A stretch of DNA of 64,000 nucleotides from Brevundimonas sp. (GTDB lineage: Bacteria > Pseudomonadota > Alphaproteobacteria > Caulobacterales > Caulobacteraceae): positions 684 to 64,683 of the forward strand of contig NZ_JBOHLI010000007.1 of assembly GCF_050729455.1 (NCBI RefSeq), read 5' to 3'. Shown piece after piece: positions 1 through 38,974 of the stretch (the first letter of the stretch is position 1; the number at the start of each line of letters is the position of its first letter). The position numbers were made by a program, and so were the translations under genes. The notes below the pieces were generated by a model. That model ran no database searches. It saw only the letters and a list, made by a program, of their open reading frames with translations, and was not told the DNA's origin.

Positions 1-859
1 CGCGTGCGGCCTCGAGGAAGCGACGATAGGGCAACAGCAGGGCCCCCGCCGCATAGTTGGCCAGCCCGACCCGGCAGACATCGCGCGCAGCGGGAATGTC
101 GAAGGCGGCGCGGTCCAGCTCGTGCTCGATCAGGTCGTGGAAGCGCAGCAAGACCAGCTGATGCGCCATCAGGAAGGACCGCGTCGCGCCGGGCAGGCTG
201 GCGTCGACATAGAGGATGCGCGCCGCCGGATCGAAGCGCCGCATGGCGCCGCGCCCTTCGCCGGTGGCCAGACGGACCCCGCACAGGTCGTTCAGCGCCG
301 CCTCCAGATCGCGCTCGGGGTGGCCGCCCGCGCCCAGACCCAGCTGCTCCGCTAGCGCCTCCGCCGCCTGATCCAGCGCGTCGATGTAGTTGTCACGATA
401 GTGGAAGAAGTCGCGCACGGCTTCATAGGGCAGGGCGGGGGAGCCTTGCGCCCGCTCGTCCCGGCCCAGGGTCTCGTTCAGGGTCTTCAGTCGCTCGTCC
501 AGGCGGCGATAGTCCTGATGCAGGGCCAGGAACTGACGCGCCAGCCGGGGGGTGTTGGTCACCGCCTGCTTCAGCTCGACGGGCGAGGGGGCCTCGGCGT
601 GACCGGCGACGTCGGTGACGGCCTCGCGCAGGTCGGCGATCAGTCGGGCGTCGCCGTCCAGATCGAACAGGCTGGCGTCCACGTCGAAGGCCCGCGTCAG
701 GGCGATCAGAACCCGCGCCGTCGCCGGGCGTTGATTGGTCTCGATCTGCGACAGGTAGCTGGGCGACAGGGTCAGCCGCCCGGCGCAGGCTTCCAGCGTC
801 CAGCCGCGCGCCTCGCGCAGCTTGCGCACCTTGGCCCCGAGATAGAGTTTTTCCGCCAT
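1..859 (-). CDS. pccR: XRE-family HTH regulator of the short-chain fatty acyl-CoA (ScfR/PccR) type; 3' end runs off the window
   Basis: Absent from the ORF track because it is open at the window edge. Hand translation from ATG (complement of 857-859) reads [61 protein letters not shown] (Cro/C1 HTH), then ...[17 protein letters not shown]...FLMAHQL..., with no stop down to position 1. Divergent from pccB. Confidence 0.75.
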
Positions 860-2526: not shown

Positions 2527-2537
2527 AGGGGGAGATC

Positions 2538-3308
2538 GTGAAAGTTGTTTCAATTCAGCAGTATATATACTTGGGTACCAACATTTGGTATCTGCAAAGT
2601 CTTTCTCCGCGCCAGGGTGTTGGCACTCCCGGCGGGGTAAGAAAAAACGTCAACTCGCTCCTAGAATCTCTTGAGAAATTTGGCCTCCCAGTTAGCCGGC
2701 GCGCCGCCAGAGATTTAGAGAAATACTGTAATGAAAATCTCGTGGAAGAGAATGAGGATGTTTCTTCGCTTATAGGACAAGAAAGAGCGGACGAGATAAA
2801 GAAACTGGCTAGCAGATTGCGTCCAACAATAAATGCGGAATCGCTGGGGCTTTTTGCCTATTTGACTACCGAAAAGAGATTCTCGACGGAGAATCTTATG
2901 ACCGACCCTTGGAAGCTTTTTGCGGAGGGCATCAAGGGAAGGATCGACGATGTTCCGGTTAGGGATATTGAAGACGCCGCAAAATGTATTGTATTTGAAA
3001 GAGCGACGGCTGCGGCTTTTCACTTGCTTCGTGCGACAGAAGCGGTGCTAAAGCAGTTTTATTGCCACCATATTCGTCGAAATAGAGGTCAACTGATGTG
3101 GGGCCCGATGATTTCCGGGCTGCGGGCAAAGCGAAATCCACCAGATTCAGCCCTCCTCGATCATCTGGATAGTATCAGGCGCAATTTTAGAAACCCGACG
3201 CAGCATCCAGAAAAAATATACGATATGGTTGAGGCTCAAGACTTATTCGGGGTTTGCATAGATGTTCTGAATCGAATGTCTTCTGATCTTCCAGACCGTT
3301 CTCAATAG
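2538..3308 (+). CDS. AT-rich hypothetical protein with a C-terminal HEPN-like (R-x4-H) motif
   Basis: Single clean 256-codon ORF, GTG start 6 nt after GGGGGAG. Hand count is 26/60 G+C for 2761-2820 against 39/60 for 2401-2460. Helix-like AAAFHLLRATEAVLKQF, then LDSIRRNFRNPTQHPE (RNPTQH at 3189-3206). The exact start is uncertain. Confidence 0.7.
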   Translation: MKVVSIQQYIYLGTNIWYLQSLSPRQGVGTPGGVRKNVNSLLESLEKFGLPVSRRAARDLEKYCNENLVEENEDVSSLIGQERADEIKKLASRLRPTINAESLGLFAYLTTEKRFSTENLMTDPWKLFAEGIKGRIDDVPVRDIEDAAKCIVFERATAAAFHLLRATEAVLKQFYCHHIRRNRGQLMWGPMISGLRAKRNPPDSALLDHLDSIRRNFRNPTQHPEKIYDMVEAQDLFGVCIDVLNRMSSDLPDRSQ

Positions 3309-3346
3309 ATAAAACGTCCTTAAATGACGATTGAAGGCTTAGCCTG

Positions 3347-5335
<1,989 letters not shown>

Positions 5336-6718: not shown

Positions 6719-8874
6719 GCTTCCCCGACTTCTCCAAGATCGACCTGGACCTGACCGCGACCGGCGCGGGTCCGACGCGCGATCCCTGGCTGACGCCCGA
6801 GGGCCTGACGGTCGAGACTTCCTATGGTCCCGATGCGCTGGAAGGCCTCGACGCCATCCACGGCCTGCCGGGTTTCGCCCCCTATATGCGCGGGCCGTAC
6901 CCGACCATGTACGCTGGCAATCCGTGGACGATCCGCCAGTACGCGGGCTTCTCGACCGCCGAGGAATCCAACGCCTTCTATCGCCGCAACCTGGCGGCGG
7001 GTCAGAAGGGCCTGTCGATCGCCTTCGACCTGGCCACCCACCGCGGCTATGACAGCGATCACCCGCGGGTGAAGGGCGACGTCGGCATGGCCGGCGTGGC
7101 CATCGACAGCATTCTGGATATGCGGACCCTGTTCGACGGCATCCCGCTGGATCAGATGTCGGTGTCCATGACCATGAACGGCGCCGTCCTGCCGATCCTG
7201 GCCCTCTATGTCGTGGCGGCTGAAGAACAGGGCGTGCCGCACGCGGCCCTGACCGGAACCATTCAGAACGACATTCTGAAGGAGTTCATGGTCCGCAACA
7301 CCTACATCTATCCGCCCGAACCCTCGATGCGGATCATCTCGGACATCTTTGCGTGGACCGCGCAGGAAACGCCGAAGTTCAACTCCATCTCCATCTCCGG
7401 CTATCACATGCAGGAGGCTGGGGCCTCGGCCGAGATCGAGCTGGCCTACACGCTGTCGGACGGTCTGGAGTACATCAAGGCCGGCGTCGATGCCGGCATG
7501 GACGTGGACCGGTTCGCGCCGCGCCTGTCCTTCTTCTGGGCCATCGGCATGAACTACTTCATGGAGGTGGCCAAGATGCGGGCCGGCCGCCTGCTGTGGG
7601 CGGAAAAGGTCGCCGAGAAGTTCTCGCCCAAGGACCAGCGCTCCCTGTCGCTGCGGACCCACTGCCAGACCTCGGGCTGGTCGCTGGCGGCGCAGGACGT
7701 GTTCAACAACGTCTCGCGCACCATGGTCGAGGCCATGGCGGCGGCGGGCGGTCAGACCCAGAGCCTGCACACCAACGCGCTCGACGAAGCCCTGGCCCTG
7801 CCGACCGACTTCTCGGCCCGGATCGCGCGCAACACCCAGATTCTGCTGCAGATGGAGACGGGGCTGACCCGCACCATCGACCCCTGGGGCGGCAGCTTCT
7901 ACGTCGAGCGCCTGACCCACGATCTGGCCAATCGCGCCCGCGCCCTGATGGCCGAGGTCGAGGCGGCGGGCGGCATGGCCAAGGCCATCGAGGCCGGCAT
8001 TCCCAAGCTGCGCATCGAAGAGGCGGCGGCCAAGACCCAGGCCCGCATCGACACCGGCAAGCAGACCGTGGTCGGCGTGAACCGCTATCTGAACGCTGCG
8101 CCCGACGACATTCCGATGCTGAAGGTCGACAACGCCGCTGTTCTGGCCGCCCAGATCGAGAAGCTGAAGAAGCTGCGCGCCGAGCGCGATCAGGCCGCGA
8201 CCGACGCCGCTCTGGAAGCTCTGACGGCCGGGGCGCGCGGAAACGCCAACCTGCTGGAGCTGGCGGTTCAGGCCGCTCGCGCCAAGGCCACGGTGGGCGA
8301 GATTTCCGATGCGCTGGAGGCCGCCTTCGGCCGCCACATCGCCACGGTGAAGACCGTCTCGGGCGTCTATGGCAAGGAGGCGGGCAATGATCCCAAGGTC
8401 GCCCGCGCTCGCGATATGGTCGCGACCTTTGTCGAGAATGACGGCGGTCCGCCGCGCATCCTGATCGCCAAGCTGGGTCAGGACGGTCACGATCGGGGCC
8501 AGAAGGTGGTCGCCACCGGCTACGGCGACCTGGGCCTCGACGTCACGGCCGGCGCCCTGTTTCAGACGCCCGCCGAGGCGGCCAAGGACGCGGTCGAGAA
8601 GAACGTCCACGCGGTCGGCGCCTCGTCGCTGGCGGCCGGACACCTGACGCTGGTCCCGGAACTGCGCGCCGAACTGGCCAAGCTGGGCCGCGAGGACATC
8701 ATGATCGTGGTCGGCGGCGTCATTCCGCCCTCGGACGTGCAACCCCTGCTGGATATGGGCGCGGCCGCGGTCTATCCGCCCGGCTCGGTGATCGCCGACA
8801 CGGCGGCGGACCTGATTGAAAAGCTGAACCTGCGTCTGGGCTATGCCCAGCCCGCGCCCGCGGAGACCAAGTGA
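6715..8874 (+). CDS. mutB: Methylmalonyl-CoA mutase large (alpha) subunit, B12-dependent
   Basis: [60 protein letters not shown] and C-terminal B12 domain [15 protein letters not shown]. Confidence 0.95.
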
Positions 8875-34708: not shown

Positions 34709-36925
34709 TCAGTAGCGGAGGTTGACGGAGACGCCGAAGTTGCGGCCGGGTTGGGTGAATGCGGGCAGGGTGGCCGGATCGGTCGGCGCAGCGACCGTGC
34801 CGCCGCGCGACAGGCCGCGCACGTCGCTCCACCAGGCGTAGGTCTCGTCGAGGGCGTTGAAGACCCCGGCGCGCAGGGTGGCCTTTTCCGTCACGTTCCA
34901 GAAGGCGGTCAGGTCCAGGATGGCGAACTCTTCGCCCTGCCAGCAGTTGCCGCCGCCGCAGCCGGCGCGGTCCTTCTTGTCCGACCAGGTGACGGTGGCC
35001 GAACCACCCCAGACGCCCGACGGCGCGGCGTAGTTCAGGCCGCCGACGACCTTGACTGGATCAATGCTGGTCAGCTTGCCGCGCGCGCCGTCCGTCTCCT
35101 GATCGCCGTCGGCGAAGGAGGCGGCGACGATGGCCGAGACGCCGTTGTCCCAATGGATATCGCCGCGCGCTTCCAGACCCCAGATCTTCACTTCGGTCAG
35201 GTTGACGTATTGGTAGATCAGCGGGTCGACGCCCGGCACGCCGGTTCCGCGCACCACCACCTGATTGATGAAGTCGTCATAGTCGGTGTGGAAGGCCGTG
35301 GTCGACAGCGACAGGGCGCCGCCGAACGCCTTCAGATTGCGGAAGCGCACGCCCGCCTCGATGCTCTCGCTGGTTTCGGGCGTCAGGTCCGGGTTCGGGA
35401 TGGACTCATAGCCGAACACCGGGTTGGCGAAGAAGTTGTTCACCTGCATCGGCGAGGGCGCCTTGAAGCCCTGTGCATAGTTGGCGAAGACGCCGAAGTG
35501 GTCGTCGGCCCAGAACATCACGCCGATCTTGGGCGACAGGTGGCTGTCGCTCTGGCCCGCCGAAGGGGCGGGGAACAGGGCGTCGGCCTTGGGTGTCAGC
35601 TCATACCAGTCGTAGCGCAGCGCCGGGATGATGCTGAGACGGCCGCCCAGCAGTTCGATCTCGTCCTGAATGAACAGGCCGGCCAGGTCGTATTCCGTCC
35701 TGGGGAAGGGGCGGGCGGGGAAGGGCTCGCCCATCGGCGGGACCGTGCCGTTGCGGATGCCTTCCTGGGTGGTGCGCGACCAGTCGCCGCCGACGGTGAC
35801 GCGGTGCTGTATCGCCTCGCCGCCAAAGGTCTTCGATCCTTGCGCCGCCATGCCCCAGACCGTGTTGTCGAAGGTGACGTCGCGGGTGCGATCGACGGCG
35901 GGCGTGCGGTCCTCATAGGTGAACTGGCGCGTGGTCGCGTCCTGCCAGTAGGCGGCGACCGAGCCGTCATCCAGGCCGAAGACGTCGTCGAAGCGCCAGT
36001 CCAGGCTGACGCGGTCGCGCCGGGTCTCGTCGTGCGCCGTCAGGCCGATGACGGTGGCCGAATAGCTGCTCAGCGCCTCGCCATCCATCTCCTGATCGAA
36101 GTGGTCGTAGGTCAGGCGGACGGCGTGGTTGTCGTTGGCGTCCCAGACCAGCTTGCCCAGGATGGCGTTTGAGGCGATTTCCTGCGGGTTCGGCTGGGTC
36201 CGGGCCGAGCCCGTGCCGCCGACCTCGGCCATGTTCTCGGTCTCATGGGCGTCGCGGCGGGTGTAGGCCAGCAGCCCGGACAACGAGCCGGCGCGGCCCG
36301 CGAGCGCCAGACCCTCGGTCCAGCCGTCGTCGGCCGAGTTGTAGCCGACCCGGGCGCGGGCGCCGAAGCTGCGGCCGCTGTCGATGAAGTCGGCCGGGTC
36401 CTTGGAGGTGAAGCTGACCGCGCCGGCGATGCCGTCCGAGCCATAGAGGGCCGAGGCGGGGCCGCGCAGGATCTCGACCGACTTGACCAGATCCAGGTCG
36501 TTGTAGCCGCCGCGCCCCACGCTCTGGGCGCCGAAGGCGAAGCCGTCGGGCACCCGAACGCCGTCCTGGATGATCAGCACCCGGTTGCCGCCCATGCCGC
36601 GAATGGTGAAGCCCGAGTTGCCGTCGCGGCCCGCGCCCGACAGGGCGGCCGAGAAGCGGGCGGGGCTGGTGGGGACGCTGACGCCCGGCTCGAACCGGAT
36701 CAGGTCCTTGATATCGGTGACCAGATTGTTCTCGATGGTCTCGGCGGTGATGACGCTGACGGTGGCGGGCACATCGTCCACGCGGCGCTGGGTGCGGGTG
36801 CCGACGACAGTGATCGGCGCGACCGGCACGGCCTTCTGCAGATCGACGACTTCCTCGGCCAAGGCAGGGAAGGCGGCGGCTGAAAGGGCGGTCAGCCCGG
36901 CGGAGAACATCAGAAACGAGCGCAT
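34709..36925 (-). CDS. TonB-dependent receptor, haemoglobin/transferrin/lactoferrin (haem-type) family
   Basis: Signal MRSFLMFSAGLTALSAAAFPALA. Plug motifs DIKDLIRFEPGVSV...FTIRGMGGNRVLIIQDGVRVPD. FKAPS and NPDL boxes in the positions of FRAP/NPNL. Terminal ...VSVNLRY. Confidence 0.85.
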   Translation of the reverse strand: MRSFLMFSAGLTALSAAAFPALAEEVVDLQKAVPVAPITVVGTRTQRRVDDVPATVSVITAETIENNLVTDIKDLIRFEPGVSVPTSPARFSAALSGAGRDGNSGFTIRGMGGNRVLIIQDGVRVPDGFAFGAQSVGRGGYNDLDLVKSVEILRGPASALYGSDGIAGAVSFTSKDPADFIDSGRSFGARARVGYNSADDGWTEGLALAGRAGSLSGLLAYTRRDAHETENMAEVGGTGSARTQPNPQEIASNAILGKLVWDANDNHAVRLTYDHFDQEMDGEALSSYSATVIGLTAHDETRRDRVSLDWRFDDVFGLDDGSVAAYWQDATTRQFTYEDRTPAVDRTRDVTFDNTVWGMAAQGSKTFGGEAIQHRVTVGGDWSRTTQEGIRNGTVPPMGEPFPARPFPRTEYDLAGLFIQDEIELLGGRLSIIPALRYDWYELTPKADALFPAPSAGQSDSHLSPKIGVMFWADDHFGVFANYAQGFKAPSPMQVNNFFANPVFGYESIPNPDLTPETSESIEAGVRFRNLKAFGGALSLSTTAFHTDYDDFINQVVVRGTGVPGVDPLIYQYVNLTEVKIWGLEARGDIHWDNGVSAIVAASFADGDQETDGARGKLTSIDPVKVVGGLNYAAPSGVWGGSATVTWSDKKDRAGCGGGNCWQGEEFAILDLTAFWNVTEKATLRAGVFNALDETYAWWSDVRGLSRGGTVAAPTDPATLPAFTQPGRNFGVSVNLRY

Positions 36926-37018: not shown

Positions 37019-37291
37019 CTATGAGGCGCGCTGAAGTGCGACGCCGAGGGCGAGGGCTCGCAATGAGCGGGTGCGGATGACAGCCACGGCGCCGCAGCGA
37101 TCGCCCGGTGCGGCTGCTGCGGCGCATGACCCCGAGGGACCGACGGTCAGAAACTCGTCCGGCGACAGCTGGCGGTGGGTGGTCGAGGCCGGGTGGCAGA
37201 CCAGGGACCTGGCGTCGCCGATGTTGACAAGGCGGGTGAACAGCTTGACCGCGTCCTGGAAGCGCCCGCCAGCCTCGCGGCCTCCGTCCAC
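37019..37291 (-). pseudogene. 3' remnant of an O-acetylhomoserine sulfhydrylase (MetY-type PLP enzyme) gene
   Basis: [44 protein letters not shown] matches only the C-terminal end of Cys/Met-metabolism PLP enzymes. The roughly 340 N-terminal codons are absent and the tail appears frame-disrupted. Confidence 0.7.
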
Positions 37292-37311
37292 GCCCCCATT
37301 AGGTCATGGCC

Positions 37312-37346
37312 CATAAAATAACAGGGTCACCCGACGGGCGACCCTG
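37312..37346 (-). terminator. Rho-independent terminator of the 508-aa gene
   Basis: The minus strand reads CAGGGTCGCCCG-T-CGGGTGACCCTG followed by TTATTTTAT. Confidence 0.75.
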
Positions 37347-37404
37347 CAGAAAAAACTTATTCAACAATCAGCTAAGCTAAAGATTGCCGAGCGCGGTATG
37401 CAGA

Positions 37405-38931
37405 TCAGGCAGGGTAGTAACCGATTAGAACGGGGCTGCTGCCGTCGCGATCGTAGGTAAACTCTAGGCTGACGCCTTCACCGCTTCGGATCAAGTTCAG
37501 TCTGTGTGACCAGAGCGGGATCGTGGCCGTGCCATTGTTAAATGGAGCGTTGATCTGAAGAACAACAACTTCTTCGCCGTCCTTGCTGGCCATCACCCGC
37601 ACAATGGCCTCATTGGCATTGATGCGATGCAGTTGGAAATGAACATCGACTGGGGCCAGCATGGGCGTTTGCGAGACTTCAACATCGAAATCGATCGCTT
37701 CGGTACCGACTATTGCCGCGAAGCGGTCAGTGGTAGCCAGCCAAGCCGCACTGCCGTTTGGCCAGTTCGCTTCCAGCACTCCGGTTCGCATGCTCATGGC
37801 GAGGCATTTAATCGTGGGTTTACGCGTCCAGATCGTTCCCGAGCCTATCGCACCGCACCACACACGGTTGGACGTCAGTGTGCCAAGCTCGGTAGAGCGA
37901 ATGATCTCCAGCTGATGCATGATCGTGCCAGCTTCAGCAGTTTCGTGGATCAGGGGTGCCGTCATCTGCAGTTGTTTGGTCAAACGGCCTGTTACCGCAT
38001 AGGAGGCCTTCCCCGTCAGCATAGTGCCGCCACGGATAATGATGCCGTTCTGTGCCGTCATCTGGGTCGGATCAAAGCGCAGGGCGCCGATCACATAAGG
38101 TGTGGGCGCGATACCGGCGGCCTGTTCCGGCTGTTCTGTCTCTTCGCCGGTCATGTCGATGGGCTCTTCCTCGAAGAGCGACAGGTCCAGCGCAGGGGCG
38201 ACACGCTCGGAGACGATGCCGAGGCTGGCGCCTTCAGCGGAAGGGCTGAGGGTTAAGCTTAAACCGTCGTAGGGCAGGCTGTAGCCGGTATCTGAGGCTG
38301 GCATGACGCGATCGTGGCTCAGGCCACGCGCGGTCTTGTCCGATTGAACAGCGGGACCGATAATCTGGCTGCGAATGGCCAGCCCATTATCACGCTGGCG
38401 TTGATAGCTGATGACCAGTTCGAACTCGGACGCCGTTTCGGCGGGTAGCACCTCGACGCGATCAACATGGTCCTCGCGGCGCGTAGTGTTCAGGCTGCTT
38501 ACCGCCCACCATGACGCGGCGTAAAATGCAGGGGTCACAAGGGCGGCCTTGCCGTCTGCGGCTTCGACCATGCAAACGATCTGGGCCGACCATGAGAACA
38601 TGGCCTTGACTTCGCCGGGACCACACCAGGCGCGGATCGGTTCGTATTGCTGGGCGCCAAACGGACGGAAGGACAGGAACGCGACAGGTGCGCCCTGTTT
38701 CATACGCACGGTCGAGGTCGCTATATCTGCTGCCAGACGGCCTTCGCGACGAAGACGGTAGGGAGCGGTCAGGATGGCTTCGCCACGCTGGGCGTTCTCG
38801 CTGACAACGGGTTCGCCGACAGGGATGAAGCCTCTGCTGGCGGCCCGCAAACGATCAATGCCGATTTGCTGGGGAAATGATCTGTGCGCTAGCGGGCTTT
38901 TCGTTAGCGTCTTGAGCAAAGGCGGGTCCAC
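37405..38931 (-). CDS. Hypothetical 508-aa protein, lower GC, internal two-fold repeat; N-terminus probably disrupted
   Basis: Single long ORF. Hand count 33/60 G+C for 37621-37680. Two halves share a (R)(A/V)WCG...C(M/L) pattern (IRAWCGPGE...IVCMVEA and NRVWCGAIG...IKCLAMS). I recognise no family. Confidence 0.65.
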   Translation of the reverse strand: MDPPLLKTLTKSPLAHRSFPQQIGIDRLRAASRGFIPVGEPVVSENAQRGEAILTAPYRLRREGRLAADIATSTVRMKQGAPVAFLSFRPFGAQQYEPIRAWCGPGEVKAMFSWSAQIVCMVEAADGKAALVTPAFYAASWWAVSSLNTTRREDHVDRVEVLPAETASEFELVISYQRQRDNGLAIRSQIIGPAVQSDKTARGLSHDRVMPASDTGYSLPYDGLSLTLSPSAEGASLGIVSERVAPALDLSLFEEEPIDMTGEETEQPEQAAGIAPTPYVIGALRFDPTQMTAQNGIIIRGGTMLTGKASYAVTGRLTKQLQMTAPLIHETAEAGTIMHQLEIIRSTELGTLTSNRVWCGAIGSGTIWTRKPTIKCLAMSMRTGVLEANWPNGSAAWLATTDRFAAIVGTEAIDFDVEVSQTPMLAPVDVHFQLHRINANEAIVRVMASKDGEEVVVLQINAPFNNGTATIPLWSHRLNLIRSGEGVSLEFTYDRDGSSPVLIGYYPA

Positions 38932-38974
38932 CGACCAGCAATGCTAAGATTACCAGCCGATGGACCTTGCGCAT
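38855..38974 (-). other. 39-codon ORF encoding a Sec signal peptide, probably the displaced 5' end of the 508-aa gene
   Basis: MRKVHRLVILALLVGGPAFAQDANEKPASAQIISPANRH-stop. Its ATG shares the A of the ychF TGA (TGATG). It is one nucleotide out of frame with ORF 37405-38931, which it overlaps. Confidence 0.55.

What the first reader, a model, noticed from the sequence alone, without database searches (positions are those of the whole stretch)
2527..3346. AT-rich solo HEPN-like gene wedged between pccB and pccA
A 771-nt ORF sits on the operon strand, 11 nt after the pccB stop and 38 nt before the pccA start. I saw no terminator, flanking direct repeats or mobility gene.

Its composition is foreign. 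Hand counts give 26/60 G+C for 2761-2820 against 39/60 for 2401-2460.

The C-terminal third reads like a HEPN four-helix unit: DIEDAAKCIVFERATAAAFHLLRATEAVLKQF, then LDSIRRNFRNPTQHPE. RNPTQH is the R-x4-H catalytic signature with the usual polar residue after Arg. The N-terminal ~130 residues match nothing I recognise.

HEPN proteins are typically RNases of toxin-antitoxin, abortive-infection and other defence modules. No MNT or antitoxin partner is adjacent here, and expression would ride on a propionate-inducible housekeeping operon. This is the best candidate in the window for an undescribed single-gene defence or addiction element.
Basis: partly seen in the sequence, partly recalled or inferred. 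Interest (0 to 1): 0.7.

Follow-up and report, generated by a model that had tools for sequence, protein, structure and literature searches.

The report
Lone HEPN nuclease gene after pccB
A foreign-looking, stand-alone gene for a predicted HEPN-type RNA-cutting enzyme sits inside the propionate operon of a Brevundimonas genome, in a slot after pccB where relatives carry other phage-defence genes. It belongs to an unnamed, rare but very widespread family that is probably a one-gene anti-phage suicide switch, though this is untested.

Summary
A 771-nt, 256-aa ORF (2538-3308, +) lies 11 nt after pccB and 38 nt before pccA. It has 47% GC (GC3 0.45) against about 66% in the flanks (GC3 about 0.9).

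The HEPN reading holds. A pLDDT-95 model has a C-terminal four-helix domain, and the first 26 PDB fold matches to it are all HEPN-domain proteins. R218-x4-H223 is invariant and sits at the end of helix 3.

The gene belongs to an unnamed family of about 250-aa proteins. I found no hit for it in Pfam, NCBIfam or PADLOC. It occurs in only 111 of 185,579 species genomes, spread over more than 15 phyla and archaea. It is AT-richer than its host in 77 of 81 loci and has no recurrent partner gene.

All ten alphaproteobacterial lineages found carry it directly 3' of pccB. In close Brevundimonas-like relatives the same slot holds an Mrr restriction enzyme, an Abi_alpha gene, other cargo or nothing.

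Best reading: a solo, self-restrained HEPN RNase triggered by phage, co-transcribed with pccBA, carried as cargo of a pccB-3' hotspot (confidence 0.55). Function and mode of arrival are untested. It is a new family of a known kind; interest is moderate.

The parts
2..859 (-). 5' part (287 codons) of a ScfR/PccR-type regulator gene, divergent from pccB. It gives the context for propionate-controlled transcription.
   Evidence: tblastn with the L002 regulator gives 88.5% identity over residues 1-287. The L002 gene carries HTH_3, Peptidase_M78 and ScfRs domains. PccR activates the methylmalonyl-CoA pathway genes in Rhodobacter (PMC10370305).
916..2526 (+). pccB, the propionyl-CoA carboxylase carboxyltransferase subunit. 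Its 3' end is the left border of the cargo slot.
   Evidence: ORF. It is 92-96% identical to pccB of L001, L002 and L171. Homologues carry Carboxyl_trans.
2527..2537 (+). 11-nt left junction AGGGGGAGATC, carrying the ribosome-binding site of the HEPN gene.
   Evidence: Equivalent junctions of 8-23 nt in most pccB-linked relatives (84 nt in L173) share only a purine-rich ribosome-binding site.
2538..3308 (+). Solo HEPN-family gene, 256 aa, GTG start. GC is 0.47 and GC3 is 0.45.
2538..2918 (+). Variable all-helical N-terminal half (residues 1-127), the presumed sensor or regulatory part. It contains invariant E101.
   Evidence: Model helices 6-20, 34-47, 51-56, 58-67, 81-102 and 117-127. Mean pairwise identity is 0.34 against 0.58 for the C-terminal half. 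The window protein has no Pfam hit at E<=10, and relatives give no significant match (best in this half about 0.04, HTH-type).
2919..3305 (+). HEPN domain (residues 128-256): helices 138-152, 156-178, an insert helix 188-196, then 204-216 and 230-249.
   Evidence: The domain model has pLDDT 95.4. The first 26 Foldseek matches in the PDB are all HEPN-domain proteins, TM 0.36-0.68 (0.58-0.68 for the first six), best E 4e-3. Of 40 relatives, 10 hit DUF4145 and 5 hit PF05168 HEPN, weakly.
3006..3041 (+). Helix-2 motif T157-A-A-A-F-H162-L-L-R165-A-T-E168. It supplies the invariant acidic residue, plus an extra invariant His and Arg.
   Evidence: Invariant columns T157, A158, F161, H162, R165 and E168 in 40 sequences. 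The helix-2 acidic residue is a HEPN hallmark (PMC3710099).
3189..3206 (+). R218-N-P-T-Q-H223, the Rx4H catalytic motif at the end of helix 3.
   Evidence: R218, N219, P220, T221, H223 and P224 are invariant. The motif lies just after helix 204-216, the position described for HEPN (PMC3710099).
3309..3346 (+). AT-rich 38-nt right junction, with the pccA ribosome-binding site GAAGG at 3333-3337.
   Evidence: In L002 the equivalent gap is 7 nt.
3347..5335 (+). pccA, the biotin carboxylase / carrier subunit. It forms the right border of the slot here and in L002, and is followed by the methylmalonyl-CoA mutase genes.
   Evidence: It is 85% identical to L002 pccA. pccB and pccA lie 7-75 nt apart in L105-L107.

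Best explanation
The gene encodes a stand-alone HEPN-superfamily endoribonuclease from an unnamed family.

**Shown**
- It has a faster-evolving helical N-terminal half.
- There is no partner gene here or across the family.
- It lies on the operon strand with its own ribosome-binding site, and no terminator-like site separates it from pccB or pccA.
- It occupies a slot directly 3' of pccB that holds other defence-type cargo in close relatives.

**Inferred**
- It is transcribed with pccB and pccA from the PccR-controlled promoter.
- The protein is made in a self-restrained form, probably an oligomer that keeps the two Rx4H motifs of a HEPN dimer apart.
- A phage product recognised by the variable N-terminal half releases the restraint. 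The nuclease then cuts tRNA, rRNA or mRNA and stops translation, so the infected cell dies or stalls. This is abortive infection, as in HepS and RAZR.
- The gene is horizontally acquired cargo. Its alleles turn over among related genomes at the pccB-3' hotspot.
For: **Fold**
- The full-length model has pLDDT 95.2 and the domain model 95.4.
- The first 26 Foldseek PDB matches to the domain are all HEPN proteins: TT1696, ST0689, TM0613, AF0298, HepT, sacsin and Csm6. Probability reaches 1.00 and TM 0.68.

**Motif**
- Nineteen residues are invariant in 40 sequences at 38-65% identity. They include R218, N219, H223 and E168.
- Their placement matches the published HEPN definition.

**Sequence links to the HEPN clan**
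- DUF4145 is hit by 10 of 40 relatives and PF05168 by 5 of 40, best E 1.3e-4.

**Solo status**
- The gaps to the neighbouring genes are 11 and 38 nt here, and 8 and 7 nt in L002.
- The 136 neighbours of 68 other loci hit 166 Pfam families, and no partner recurs.

**Accessory, horizontally moving**
- The family occurs in 111 of 185,579 species genomes, across more than 15 phyla and archaea.
- The gene is AT-richer than its flanks in 77 of 81 loci, by 8.7 points on average.

**Slot contents in close relatives (pccB 89-94% identical)**
- Mrr_N + Mrr_cat lies 11 nt after the pccB stop on the same strand in L094.
- An Abi_alpha gene overlaps the pccB stop in L096.
- A ParA-like gene with a partner ORF fills the slot in L122.
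- L092, L093 and L098 hold ORFs with no Pfam hit.
- L091 and L097 hold only an eroded remnant of the downstream gene.

**Other family members beside defence-type genes**
- Neighbours include Mrr_cat, GmrSD_C, PIN and an N6_N4 methylase.

**Selection**
- pN is 0.20-0.33 against pS of about 0.8.
- The C-terminal half is much more conserved than the N-terminal half.

**Allele turnover**
- The window's copy groups with those of L171 and L172 (99/100 bootstraps).
- Yet its flanks are closest to L002. pccB 4-fold excess identity is 0.67 for L002 against 0.33 for L171, and only L002 shares the downstream pccA-mcm genes.

**Precedent**
- Solo HEPN defence proteins without an antitoxin exist: HepS and RAZR.
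Against: - No activity, toxicity or phage phenotype has been tested for any member of the family.
- No PADLOC hit appears even at E<=10.
- No sequence-level match to any solved HEPN protein was found.
- Foldseek E-values are modest: the best is 4e-3, and most are between 0.02 and 1.
- Most family members sit among housekeeping genes, not in recognisable defence islands. Guilt by association therefore rests mainly on the Brevundimonas slot.
- Oligomeric state and the position of E101 and E168 relative to the motif could not be examined.
- Co-transcription is inferred only from spacing and the absence of consensus signals. The scan does not model Caulobacterales promoters.
Confidence: 0.55

Rival explanations
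1. A self-targeting selfish gene. The family itself, or a trans-acting system that recognises it, inserts single-gene copies just after the stop codon of conserved, transcribed genes. Known landing sites are pccB, purT, tldD, GroEL and aspartate kinase. The HEPN protein would serve its own spread or retention rather than host defence.
For: - All ten alphaproteobacterial lineages found carry it 8-84 nt after pccB, with varying downstream genes.
- L049 and L050 form a separate 100/100 clade that is also after pccB.
- Seven Nitrospirota copies lie after purT.
- One copy sits between tldD and pmbA, 2 nt after the upstream gene.
- Others lie directly after GroEL, aspartate kinase, a carbamoyltransferase and a NiFe-hydrogenase subunit.
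Against: - No repeats, att-like motif, integrase or transposase appear at any junction. Only ribosome-binding-site-like purine runs are shared.
- HEPN domains are RNases, with no precedent for DNA integration.
- The same pccB slot takes unrelated cargo (Mrr, Abi_alpha, ParA-like), so the slot rather than this gene looks like the special feature.
- By a crude ORF count, only about a third of the loci have a close same-strand upstream gene.
- Within lineages the copies form clades (100/100 for the five Brevundimonas-type copies and for the purT group). That fits one arrival per lineage.
Confidence: 0.1
2. A toxin of a toxin-antitoxin or addiction module whose antitoxin is unrecognised. It could be a cis-acting N-terminal domain, a small RNA or overlapping ORF, or a gene elsewhere. 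Its role would be stabilising the locus or stress-induced growth arrest rather than phage defence.
For: - HEPN RNases are the toxins of the abundant HepT-MntA modules, and HepT chains are among the fold matches.
- An N-terminal half fused to the nuclease could act as an in-cis inhibitor.
- Embedding in an important operon would make deletion costly.
Against: - No MNT or any recurrent neighbour exists.
- The intergenic gaps are too short for another gene.
- No Rfam family or tandem-repeat-type antitoxin RNA was found.
- The slot is readily emptied or replaced in relatives, which argues against strong addiction.
Confidence: 0.12
3. A host RNA-processing or regulatory factor tied to propionate metabolism. 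It could be an accessory of propionyl-CoA carboxylase or an RNase that tunes the pccBA-mcm transcript.
For: - The gene is strictly linked to pccB in Alphaproteobacteria and lies on the operon strand under PccR-type control.
- Some HEPN proteins, such as Las1 and Swt1, have RNA-processing roles.
Against: - It is absent from all 80 pccB contigs of the metagenome scan, including the ten closest.
- pccB and pccA lie 7-75 nt apart in other Caulobacterales-like contigs.
- Most family members in other phyla are nowhere near acyl-CoA carboxylase genes.
- Its composition is foreign.
- In half of the pccB-linked cases pccA is not the next gene.
Confidence: 0.05
4. A functionless passenger: a decaying or catalytically dead HEPN relic that persists only because removing it precisely from an operon is unlikely.
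For: - No phenotype is known for any member.
- The AT-rich codon usage (GC3 0.45) is poorly matched to the host.
Against: - The reading frame is intact in every lineage examined.
- Nineteen residues, including the whole catalytic motif, are invariant over 40 sequences from many phyla.
- pN is far below pS.
- The model has pLDDT 95.
Confidence: 0.05

Closest known systems
HepS ('HEPN Solo' abortive-infection protein of the Salmonella Gifsy-1 prophage; PMC13043305)
   Same: A single HEPN protein with a canonical Rx4-6H motif and no partner or inhibitor gene. HepS is constitutively made, self-inhibited as a tetramer, activated by a phage protein and then cuts tRNA. This is the working model adopted here.
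   Different: No detectable sequence similarity: no PDB sequence hit, and HepS is not among the 50 fold matches listed. HepS is prophage-borne. This gene is chromosomal, lies inside a metabolic operon and has no relative in 50,697 phage records. The N-terminal half is unrelated to anything known.
RAZR / PD-T7-4 (zinc-finger + DUF4145 HEPN RNase; PMC13017515)
   Same: A one-gene defence whose divergent HEPN domain (DUF4145) carries a catalytic Arg and His, joined to an N-terminal non-catalytic domain. It is activated by phage proteins and cleaves RNA. DUF4145 is the Pfam model most often touched by relatives of this gene (10 of 40).
   Different: All DUF4145 matches are weak (best E 0.015) and the window protein itself gives none. 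There is no Cys4 zinc ribbon. PADLOC, which has PD-T7-4 models, gives no hit.
Single-protein HEPN Abi families (AbiJ, AbiU2, AbiV, AbiD/F, ApeA; Anantharaman et al. 2013, PMC3710099)
   Same: The architecture is a variable N-terminal domain plus a C-terminal HEPN with Rx4-6H. Distribution is patchy, and some members associate with restriction-type genes.
   Different: No Pfam or PADLOC model of these families matches at E<=10. Most members here are isolated among housekeeping genes rather than in R-M operons.
HepT-MntA (HEPN-MNT) toxin-antitoxin modules
   Same: The HEPN fold; HepT chains are among the fold matches. Both are Rx4-6H RNase toxins.
   Different: No MNT nucleotidyltransferase gene is adjacent here or recurrent anywhere in the family. 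The protein is twice the size of HepT.
Chromosomal defence or cargo hotspots between core genes (a concept from pangenome studies; my own knowledge)
   Same: One inter-core-gene position holds different, compositionally foreign cargo in close relatives: HEPN, Mrr, Abi_alpha, ParA-like, or nothing.
   Different: The cargo here is single genes with no integrase or mobile-element backbone. It sits inside or at the end of an operon and is often translationally tight against pccB.

Membership tests
HEPN superfamily (Pfam clan CL0291; definition of Anantharaman et al. 2013) | [quoted passage not shown] | tested here: met
   Helices 138-152, 156-178, insert 188-196, 204-216 and 230-249. The first 26 PDB fold matches are all HEPN proteins, TM 0.36-0.68 (0.58-0.68 for the first six). 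Definition.
HEPN superfamily (Pfam clan CL0291; definition of Anantharaman et al. 2013) | Rx4-6H motif at the end of helix 3 / start of the loop to helix 4, with a polar residue after Arg | tested here: met
   R218-N-P-T-Q-H223 lies directly after helix 204-216. R218, N219 and H223 are invariant in 40 sequences.
HEPN superfamily (Pfam clan CL0291; definition of Anantharaman et al. 2013) | Conserved acidic residue in helix 2 close to the motif | tested here: inconclusive
   Invariant E168 lies in helix 156-178.
HEPN superfamily (Pfam clan CL0291; definition of Anantharaman et al. 2013) | Significant sequence match to a clan model | tested here: inconclusive
   The window protein gives none at E<=10. 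Among relatives, 10 of 40 hit DUF4145 (best 0.015), 5 of 40 hit PF05168 (best 1.3e-4) and 1 hits Hypoth_Ymh. All are weak.
HEPN superfamily (Pfam clan CL0291; definition of Anantharaman et al. 2013) | Metal-independent endoribonuclease activity from a composite dimer active site | not testable with these tools
   Needs biochemistry or a multimer model.
HEPN-MNT (HepT-MntA) toxin-antitoxin | Adjacent minimal nucleotidyltransferase antitoxin gene | tested here: not met
   The gaps to pccB and pccA are 11 and 38 nt. No recurrent neighbour appears in 68 other loci.
RAZR / DUF4145 proteins | Pfam DUF4145 match, plus an N-terminal Cys4 zinc ribbon for RAZR | tested here: not met
   The window protein has no DUF4145 hit at E<=10. 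No PADLOC hit. The N-terminal half is all-helical and no zinc-ribbon-type family appears among the Pfam hits listed.
Known or candidate defence systems in PADLOC-DB v2.0.0 | Match to any of 5027 models | tested here: not met
   0 families at E<=10.
HepS-like solo HEPN defence | Single HEPN gene without a partner or inhibitor gene | tested here: met
   This is a functional class, not a homology family: no sequence similarity to solved HEPN proteins was found.
HepS-like solo HEPN defence | Protection against phage that depends on the Rx4-6H residues and is triggered by a phage protein | not testable with these tools
   Needs phage challenge with R218A / H223A mutants.
Mobile elements (IS / transposon, integron cassette, integrative island) | Terminal inverted or direct repeats, an attC-like hairpin, target-site duplication, or a transposase / integrase gene | tested here: not met
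   Only chance-level repeats were found. No conserved junction motif appears in 14 loci. The 38-nt and 7-nt right junctions are too short for an attC. No recombinase gene lies between pccB and pccA; an integrase lies about 3.5 kb downstream in L007-L009, and none is among the neighbour families listed.
Propionyl-CoA carboxylase accessory component | Co-occurrence with pccB/pccA across genomes | tested here: not met
   Absent from all 80 pccB contigs, which are 70-94% identical to the window's pccB. Of the 80 genome loci carrying the family, 77 have no pccB nearby.

The most novel reading that the evidence does not exclude
The family could be a new kind of minimal selfish element: a single promoterless gene that lands, by an unknown targeting or capture mechanism, immediately after the stop codon of conserved, actively transcribed genes. 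Observed sites are pccB in at least two well-separated clades, purT, and the tldD|pmbA junction. It would then live off host operon transcription, with the HEPN RNase serving its own retention or spread. Its isolation among housekeeping genes would also explain why defence-island methods have missed it.
Probability: 0.1. Interest if true: 0.85.

Novelty: new member of a known kind. Interest (0 to 1): 0.5.

Why it matters
**Candidate for discovery.** If the prediction holds, this is an undescribed family of one-gene HEPN immune nucleases. It has more than 2000 cluster representatives across Bacteria and Archaea. Current defence catalogues and neighbourhood-based discovery miss it, because its members mostly sit alone among core metabolic genes.

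**Natural comparison set.** The Brevundimonas pccB-3' slot holds HEPN, Mrr, Abi_alpha or nothing in genomes that are otherwise nearly the same. That makes it a compact system for studying how single defence genes are gained, swapped and lost without any visible mobile-element machinery.

**Physiological question.** It also lets one ask whether tying an immune effector to a propionate-regulated operon has consequences for the cell.

**Experimental handle.** The invariant R218, H223, E168, H162 and R165 give immediate mutagenesis targets.

Tried and rejected
**Searches with the window protein that found nothing useful**
- Pfam, NCBIfam and PADLOC gave nothing at E<=10.
- PDB sequence searches with the protein and with two profiles gave only chance-level matches.
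- The full-length fold search against the PDB was swamped by unrelated helical proteins (E>0.3), which is why I made a domain-only model.
- The fold search against viral predicted structures gave nothing.
- tblastn found no match in 50,697 phage records. In 72,556 plasmid records it found two distant matches, one of them in a chromosome mislabelled as a plasmid.
- Only 7 relatives turned up in 2.9 million viral contigs, and I did not annotate them.

**Searches for mobility or regulatory signals**
- Scans for terminators, promoters, flanking repeats and Rfam families found nothing.
- No conserved nucleotide motif is visible at the junctions of 14 loci.

**A recurrent partner gene**
- Rejected: the neighbours are highly diverse.
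- Proteins that seemed to share only the C-terminal part are ordinary full-length family members with diverged N-termini, not alternative fusions.

**Dating the insertion**
- This is inconclusive. The gene's 4-fold sites are fully randomised between genomes whose flanks are not.
- The divergence changes sharply at the gene borders.
- Those two facts fit either allele replacement or at least 2-fold faster silent-site change in a gene free of the host's GC3 constraint.
- The mismatch between the gene's tree and flank relatedness favours some exchange.

**Monophyly of all pccB-linked copies**
- Not resolved: 8/100 bootstraps.

**Look-up of the window's own product**
- The exact-sequence look-up of the NCBI product P0001 found no record.
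Full report
**1. The observation**

The window has an ORF at 2538..3308 on the + strand: 771 nt including the stop, 256 aa, GTG start.
- The pccB stop ends at 2526, and the 11 nt that follow (AGGGGGAGATC) form a ribosome-binding site.
- The ORF's stop ends at 3308.
- After 38 AT-rich nt that contain GAAGG, the pccA ATG is at 3347.
- The gene has GC 0.468 against 0.658 and 0.659 in the flanks. GC3 is 0.45 against 0.89 for pccB and 0.91 for pccA.
- No terminator-like site lies on the + strand between pccB and pccA, and no consensus promoter was found.
- Repeats are chance-level only, and Rfam gives no match.
- Upstream, window 2-859 (-) is the start of a ScfR/PccR-type regulator gene. PccR activates these pathway genes in Rhodobacter (PMC10370305).
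- Downstream of pccA lie the two methylmalonyl-CoA mutase genes.

The organism is a Brevundimonas. NCBI holds the product as 'hypothetical protein [Brevundimonas sp.]', 245 aa. Homologues support the longer GTG-initiated form.

**2. The protein**

The window protein matches nothing in Pfam, NCBIfam, PADLOC or PDB sequences, even at E<=10. It is nevertheless a member of a large, uniform family.
- One search found 343 homologues.
- A second found 2009 cluster representatives at E<=1e-3, 141 of them at E<=1e-30.
- Nearly all are about 250 aa, none carries a precomputed Pfam domain, and every source that names one calls it hypothetical.

In an alignment of 40 members at 38-65% identity, 19 positions are invariant: E101, L120, D143, T157, A158, F161, H162, R165, E168, W188, L195, D211, R214, R218, N219, P220, T221, H223 and P224.

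AlphaFold2 gives an all-helical model with pLDDT 95.2. A model of residues 128-256 alone has pLDDT 95.4. The first 26 Foldseek matches to it in the PDB are all HEPN proteins.
- They include TT1696, ST0689, TM0613, SsR10, AF0298, HepT, sacsin HEPN and Csm6.
- Probabilities reach 1.00, TM runs from 0.36 to 0.68 (0.58-0.68 for the first six), and the best E is 4e-3.

The layout matches the published definition of the domain (PMC3710099).
- R218-x4-H223 sits at the end of helix 3.
- An invariant acidic residue, E168, lies in helix 2.

Weak but recurrent sequence links point the same way. DUF4145 is hit by 10 of 40 members and PF05168 HEPN by 5 of 40, best E 1.3e-4. All 40 members match phrog_32483, a phage-protein family of unknown function, through residues of about 115-251.

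The N-terminal half (residues 1-127) evolves faster, with mean pairwise identity 0.34 against 0.58. It resembles nothing known apart from faint HTH-type hits in a few members.

I file the protein in the HEPN superfamily, but in no described family within it.

**3. Distribution and composition**

The family is rare and scattered.
- It occurs in 111 of 185,579 species genomes. The 80 retrieved span Proteobacteria, Actinomycetota, Chloroflexota, Nitrospirota, Planctomycetota, Acidobacteriota, Bacteroidota, Patescibacteria, methanogens and an Asgard archaeon.
- It is absent from 50,697 phage records and nearly absent from plasmids and viral contigs (7 in 2.9 million).
- In 77 of 81 loci the gene is AT-richer than its flanks. 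The mean difference is 8.7 points, and the slope of gene GC on flank GC is 0.63.

**4. Neighbours**

No partner gene recurs. The 136 nearest neighbours of 68 loci hit 166 Pfam families, and most are housekeeping genes. The gene often lies tight against a conserved gene on the same strand.
- It lies between tldD and pmbA in Eremiobacteraceae, with gaps of 2 and 45 nt.
- It lies after purT in seven Nitrospirota.
- It lies after a KpsF-like gene, a carbamoyltransferase, aspartate kinase, a NiFe-hydrogenase subunit, GroEL and PfkB.
- It lies directly before dnaG in one locus.

Some copies lie beside Mrr_cat, GmrSD_C, PIN, an N6_N4 methylase or DUF222.

**5. The pccB link**

All ten alphaproteobacterial lineages found carry the gene directly after pccB.

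| Copy | Identity to the window's protein |
|---|---|
| L171 | 65% |
| L172 | 64% |
| L002 | 56% |
| L001 | 53% |
| L173/L174 | 48% |
| L006 | 44% |
| L016 | 43% |
| L049 | 40% |
| L050 | 38% |

All of these copies are AT-rich, 39-53% GC in flanks of about 56-73%.

The downstream gene varies.
- It is pccA in the window, L002, L049 and L050.
- It is an LMW-phosphatase-like gene, with its start overlapped or eroded, in L171, L172 and L001.
- It is something else in L006, L016 and L173.

So the constant is the 3' end of pccB, not the pccB-pccA junction.

Most relatives lack the gene.
- None of the 80 pccB contigs from the metagenome scan has it.
- pccB and pccA lie 7-75 nt apart in L105-L107.

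In the ten closest contigs (pccB 89-94% identical) the sequence after the pccB stop differs in nearly every one.

| Contig | Content of the slot after pccB |
|---|---|
| L094 | Mrr_N + Mrr_cat restriction enzyme, 11 nt after the stop, same strand |
| L096 | Abi_alpha gene overlapping the stop |
| L122 | ParA-like ATPase plus a 151-aa ORF |
| L092, L093, L098 | ORFs with no Pfam hit |
| L091, L097 | Only a decayed remnant of the phosphatase-like gene |
| L095, L099 | No compositional anomaly |

This is a cargo hotspot, and two of its other tenants are recognised defence genes.

**6. Age and movement**

The five Brevundimonas-type copies form a 100/100 clade. The purT-linked copies do too. That suggests one arrival per lineage. 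Whether all pccB-linked copies are one clade is unresolved (8/100). L049 and L050 form a distant clade of their own.

Between the window and L002, excess identity at 4-fold sites differs sharply between the gene and its flanks.

| Gene | 4-fold excess identity, window vs L002 |
|---|---|
| pccB | 0.67 |
| pccA | 0.47 |
| mutase small subunit | 0.28 |
| mutase large subunit | 0.49 |
| HEPN gene | -0.02 |

The change occurs at the gene borders. On its own this fits two readings: much older alleles that were swapped in, or at least 2-fold faster silent change in a gene free of the host's GC3 constraint.

A second line favours some exchange.
- The window's flanks are closest to L002: shared downstream pccA-mutase genes (with the regulator upstream), 81-89% nt identity over more than 10 kb, and pccB excess identity 0.67 against 0.33 for L171.
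- Its HEPN gene nevertheless groups with L171 and L172 in 99/100 bootstraps.

The gene is under purifying selection, with pN 0.20-0.33 against a saturated pS of about 0.8. No repeats, att-like motif or recombinase mark the junctions. How it arrives is unexplained. Recombination anchored in the conserved pccB is my inference.

**7. Mechanism**

I commit to a solo HEPN endoribonuclease acting as an abortive-infection effector (confidence 0.55).
- *Shown:* the fold, the motif, solo status, the operon-strand position without visible signals, a foreign and turning-over gene, and a slot shared with defence genes.
- *Inferred:* co-transcription with pccBA under PccR; a self-restrained resting state; activation by a phage product sensed through the variable N-terminal half; and cleavage of tRNA, rRNA or mRNA.

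The precedents are HepS, a partner-less HEPN protein held inactive as a tetramer until a phage tail protein opens it (PMC13043305), and RAZR, a zinc-finger plus DUF4145 HEPN activated by phage ring proteins (PMC13017515).

The rivals and their confidences:
- a self-targeting selfish gene, 0.10;
- a toxin with an unseen or in-cis antitoxin, 0.12;
- a propionate-linked RNA-processing factor, 0.05;
- a functionless passenger, 0.05.

**8. Novelty and verdict**

Solo HEPN defence proteins are a known kind. This is a new, unnamed family of that kind. It is absent from the Pfam, NCBIfam and PADLOC copies searched and is represented in PHROGs only as 'unknown function'.

Three points go beyond the expected:
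- its habit of sitting alone among core genes, which hides it from defence-island searches;
- the strict pccB-3' address in Alphaproteobacteria;
- a small hotspot that exchanges single defence-type genes with no mobile-element machinery in view.

Interest is 0.5: a good experimental candidate, but not a surprise in kind.

Noticed in passing
window 37250-38950: A second patch of lower GC (0.54-0.62 against about 0.67). It contains a 508-aa ORF (37405..38931, -) with no Pfam hit, next to a TonB-dependent receptor gene (34709..36925, -). It may be another accessory gene.
   Followed up: partly
window 2538-2573: NCBI's product for this gene is 245 aa, which implies a TTG start at 2571. Homologues begin MK(V/T)(V/I)S(I/L) at the position of the GTG at 2538, which also has the ribosome-binding site. 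The deposited annotation is probably 11 codons short.
   Followed up: yes
L094:5521-6429 and L096:5506-6426: In two close relatives the slot right after pccB holds a complete Mrr_N + Mrr_cat restriction endonuclease and an Abi_alpha-family gene. Both are on the pccB strand, 11 nt after the pccB stop and overlapping it, respectively.
   Followed up: yes
L091:5510-5620 and L097:5510-5620: Directly after pccB there is only a decayed, 5'-truncated remnant of the LMW-phosphatase-like gene that follows the slot in other relatives. This suggests that repeated insertion and deletion events erode the neighbouring gene.
   Followed up: partly
L023, L029, L030, L035, L038, L041, L047 (around position 7000; L030 at 5050): In seven Nitrospirota species the family member lies within about 35 nt after purT. 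Where checked (L023), an RmlD-like epimerase gene follows it. The copies form a 100/100 clade, a second lineage-specific fixed address.
   Followed up: partly
L050 (CP051228.1, titled Mesoflavibacter sp. ih5): The flanks are 63-64% GC and encode alphaproteobacterial-type pccB and pccA (71% and 51% identical to the window's). That does not fit a Flavobacteriia label, so the taxon label or binning is doubtful.
   Followed up: no
L171:593-2106: pccB upstream of the closest relative (65%) is split into two ORFs (279 and 179 aa) by a frame disruption. This is either an assembly error or a pseudogene.
   Followed up: no
L183 (NZ_AP026896.1): A PLSDB record called 'plasmid pKAM479_3' of Aeromonas caviae is 4.94 Mb, evidently a chromosome filed as a plasmid. 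It encodes a distant (30%) unannotated relative of the gene.
   Followed up: no
window 2637-2738 (residues 34-67): Three of 40 family members give weak HTH_17 hits, two hit DUF3853 and one hits Xre-like-HTH (E 0.04-0.09). The conserved V52, A56 and L60 lie in a three-helix stretch, so the N-terminal half may contain an HTH-like nucleic-acid-binding unit.
   Followed up: no
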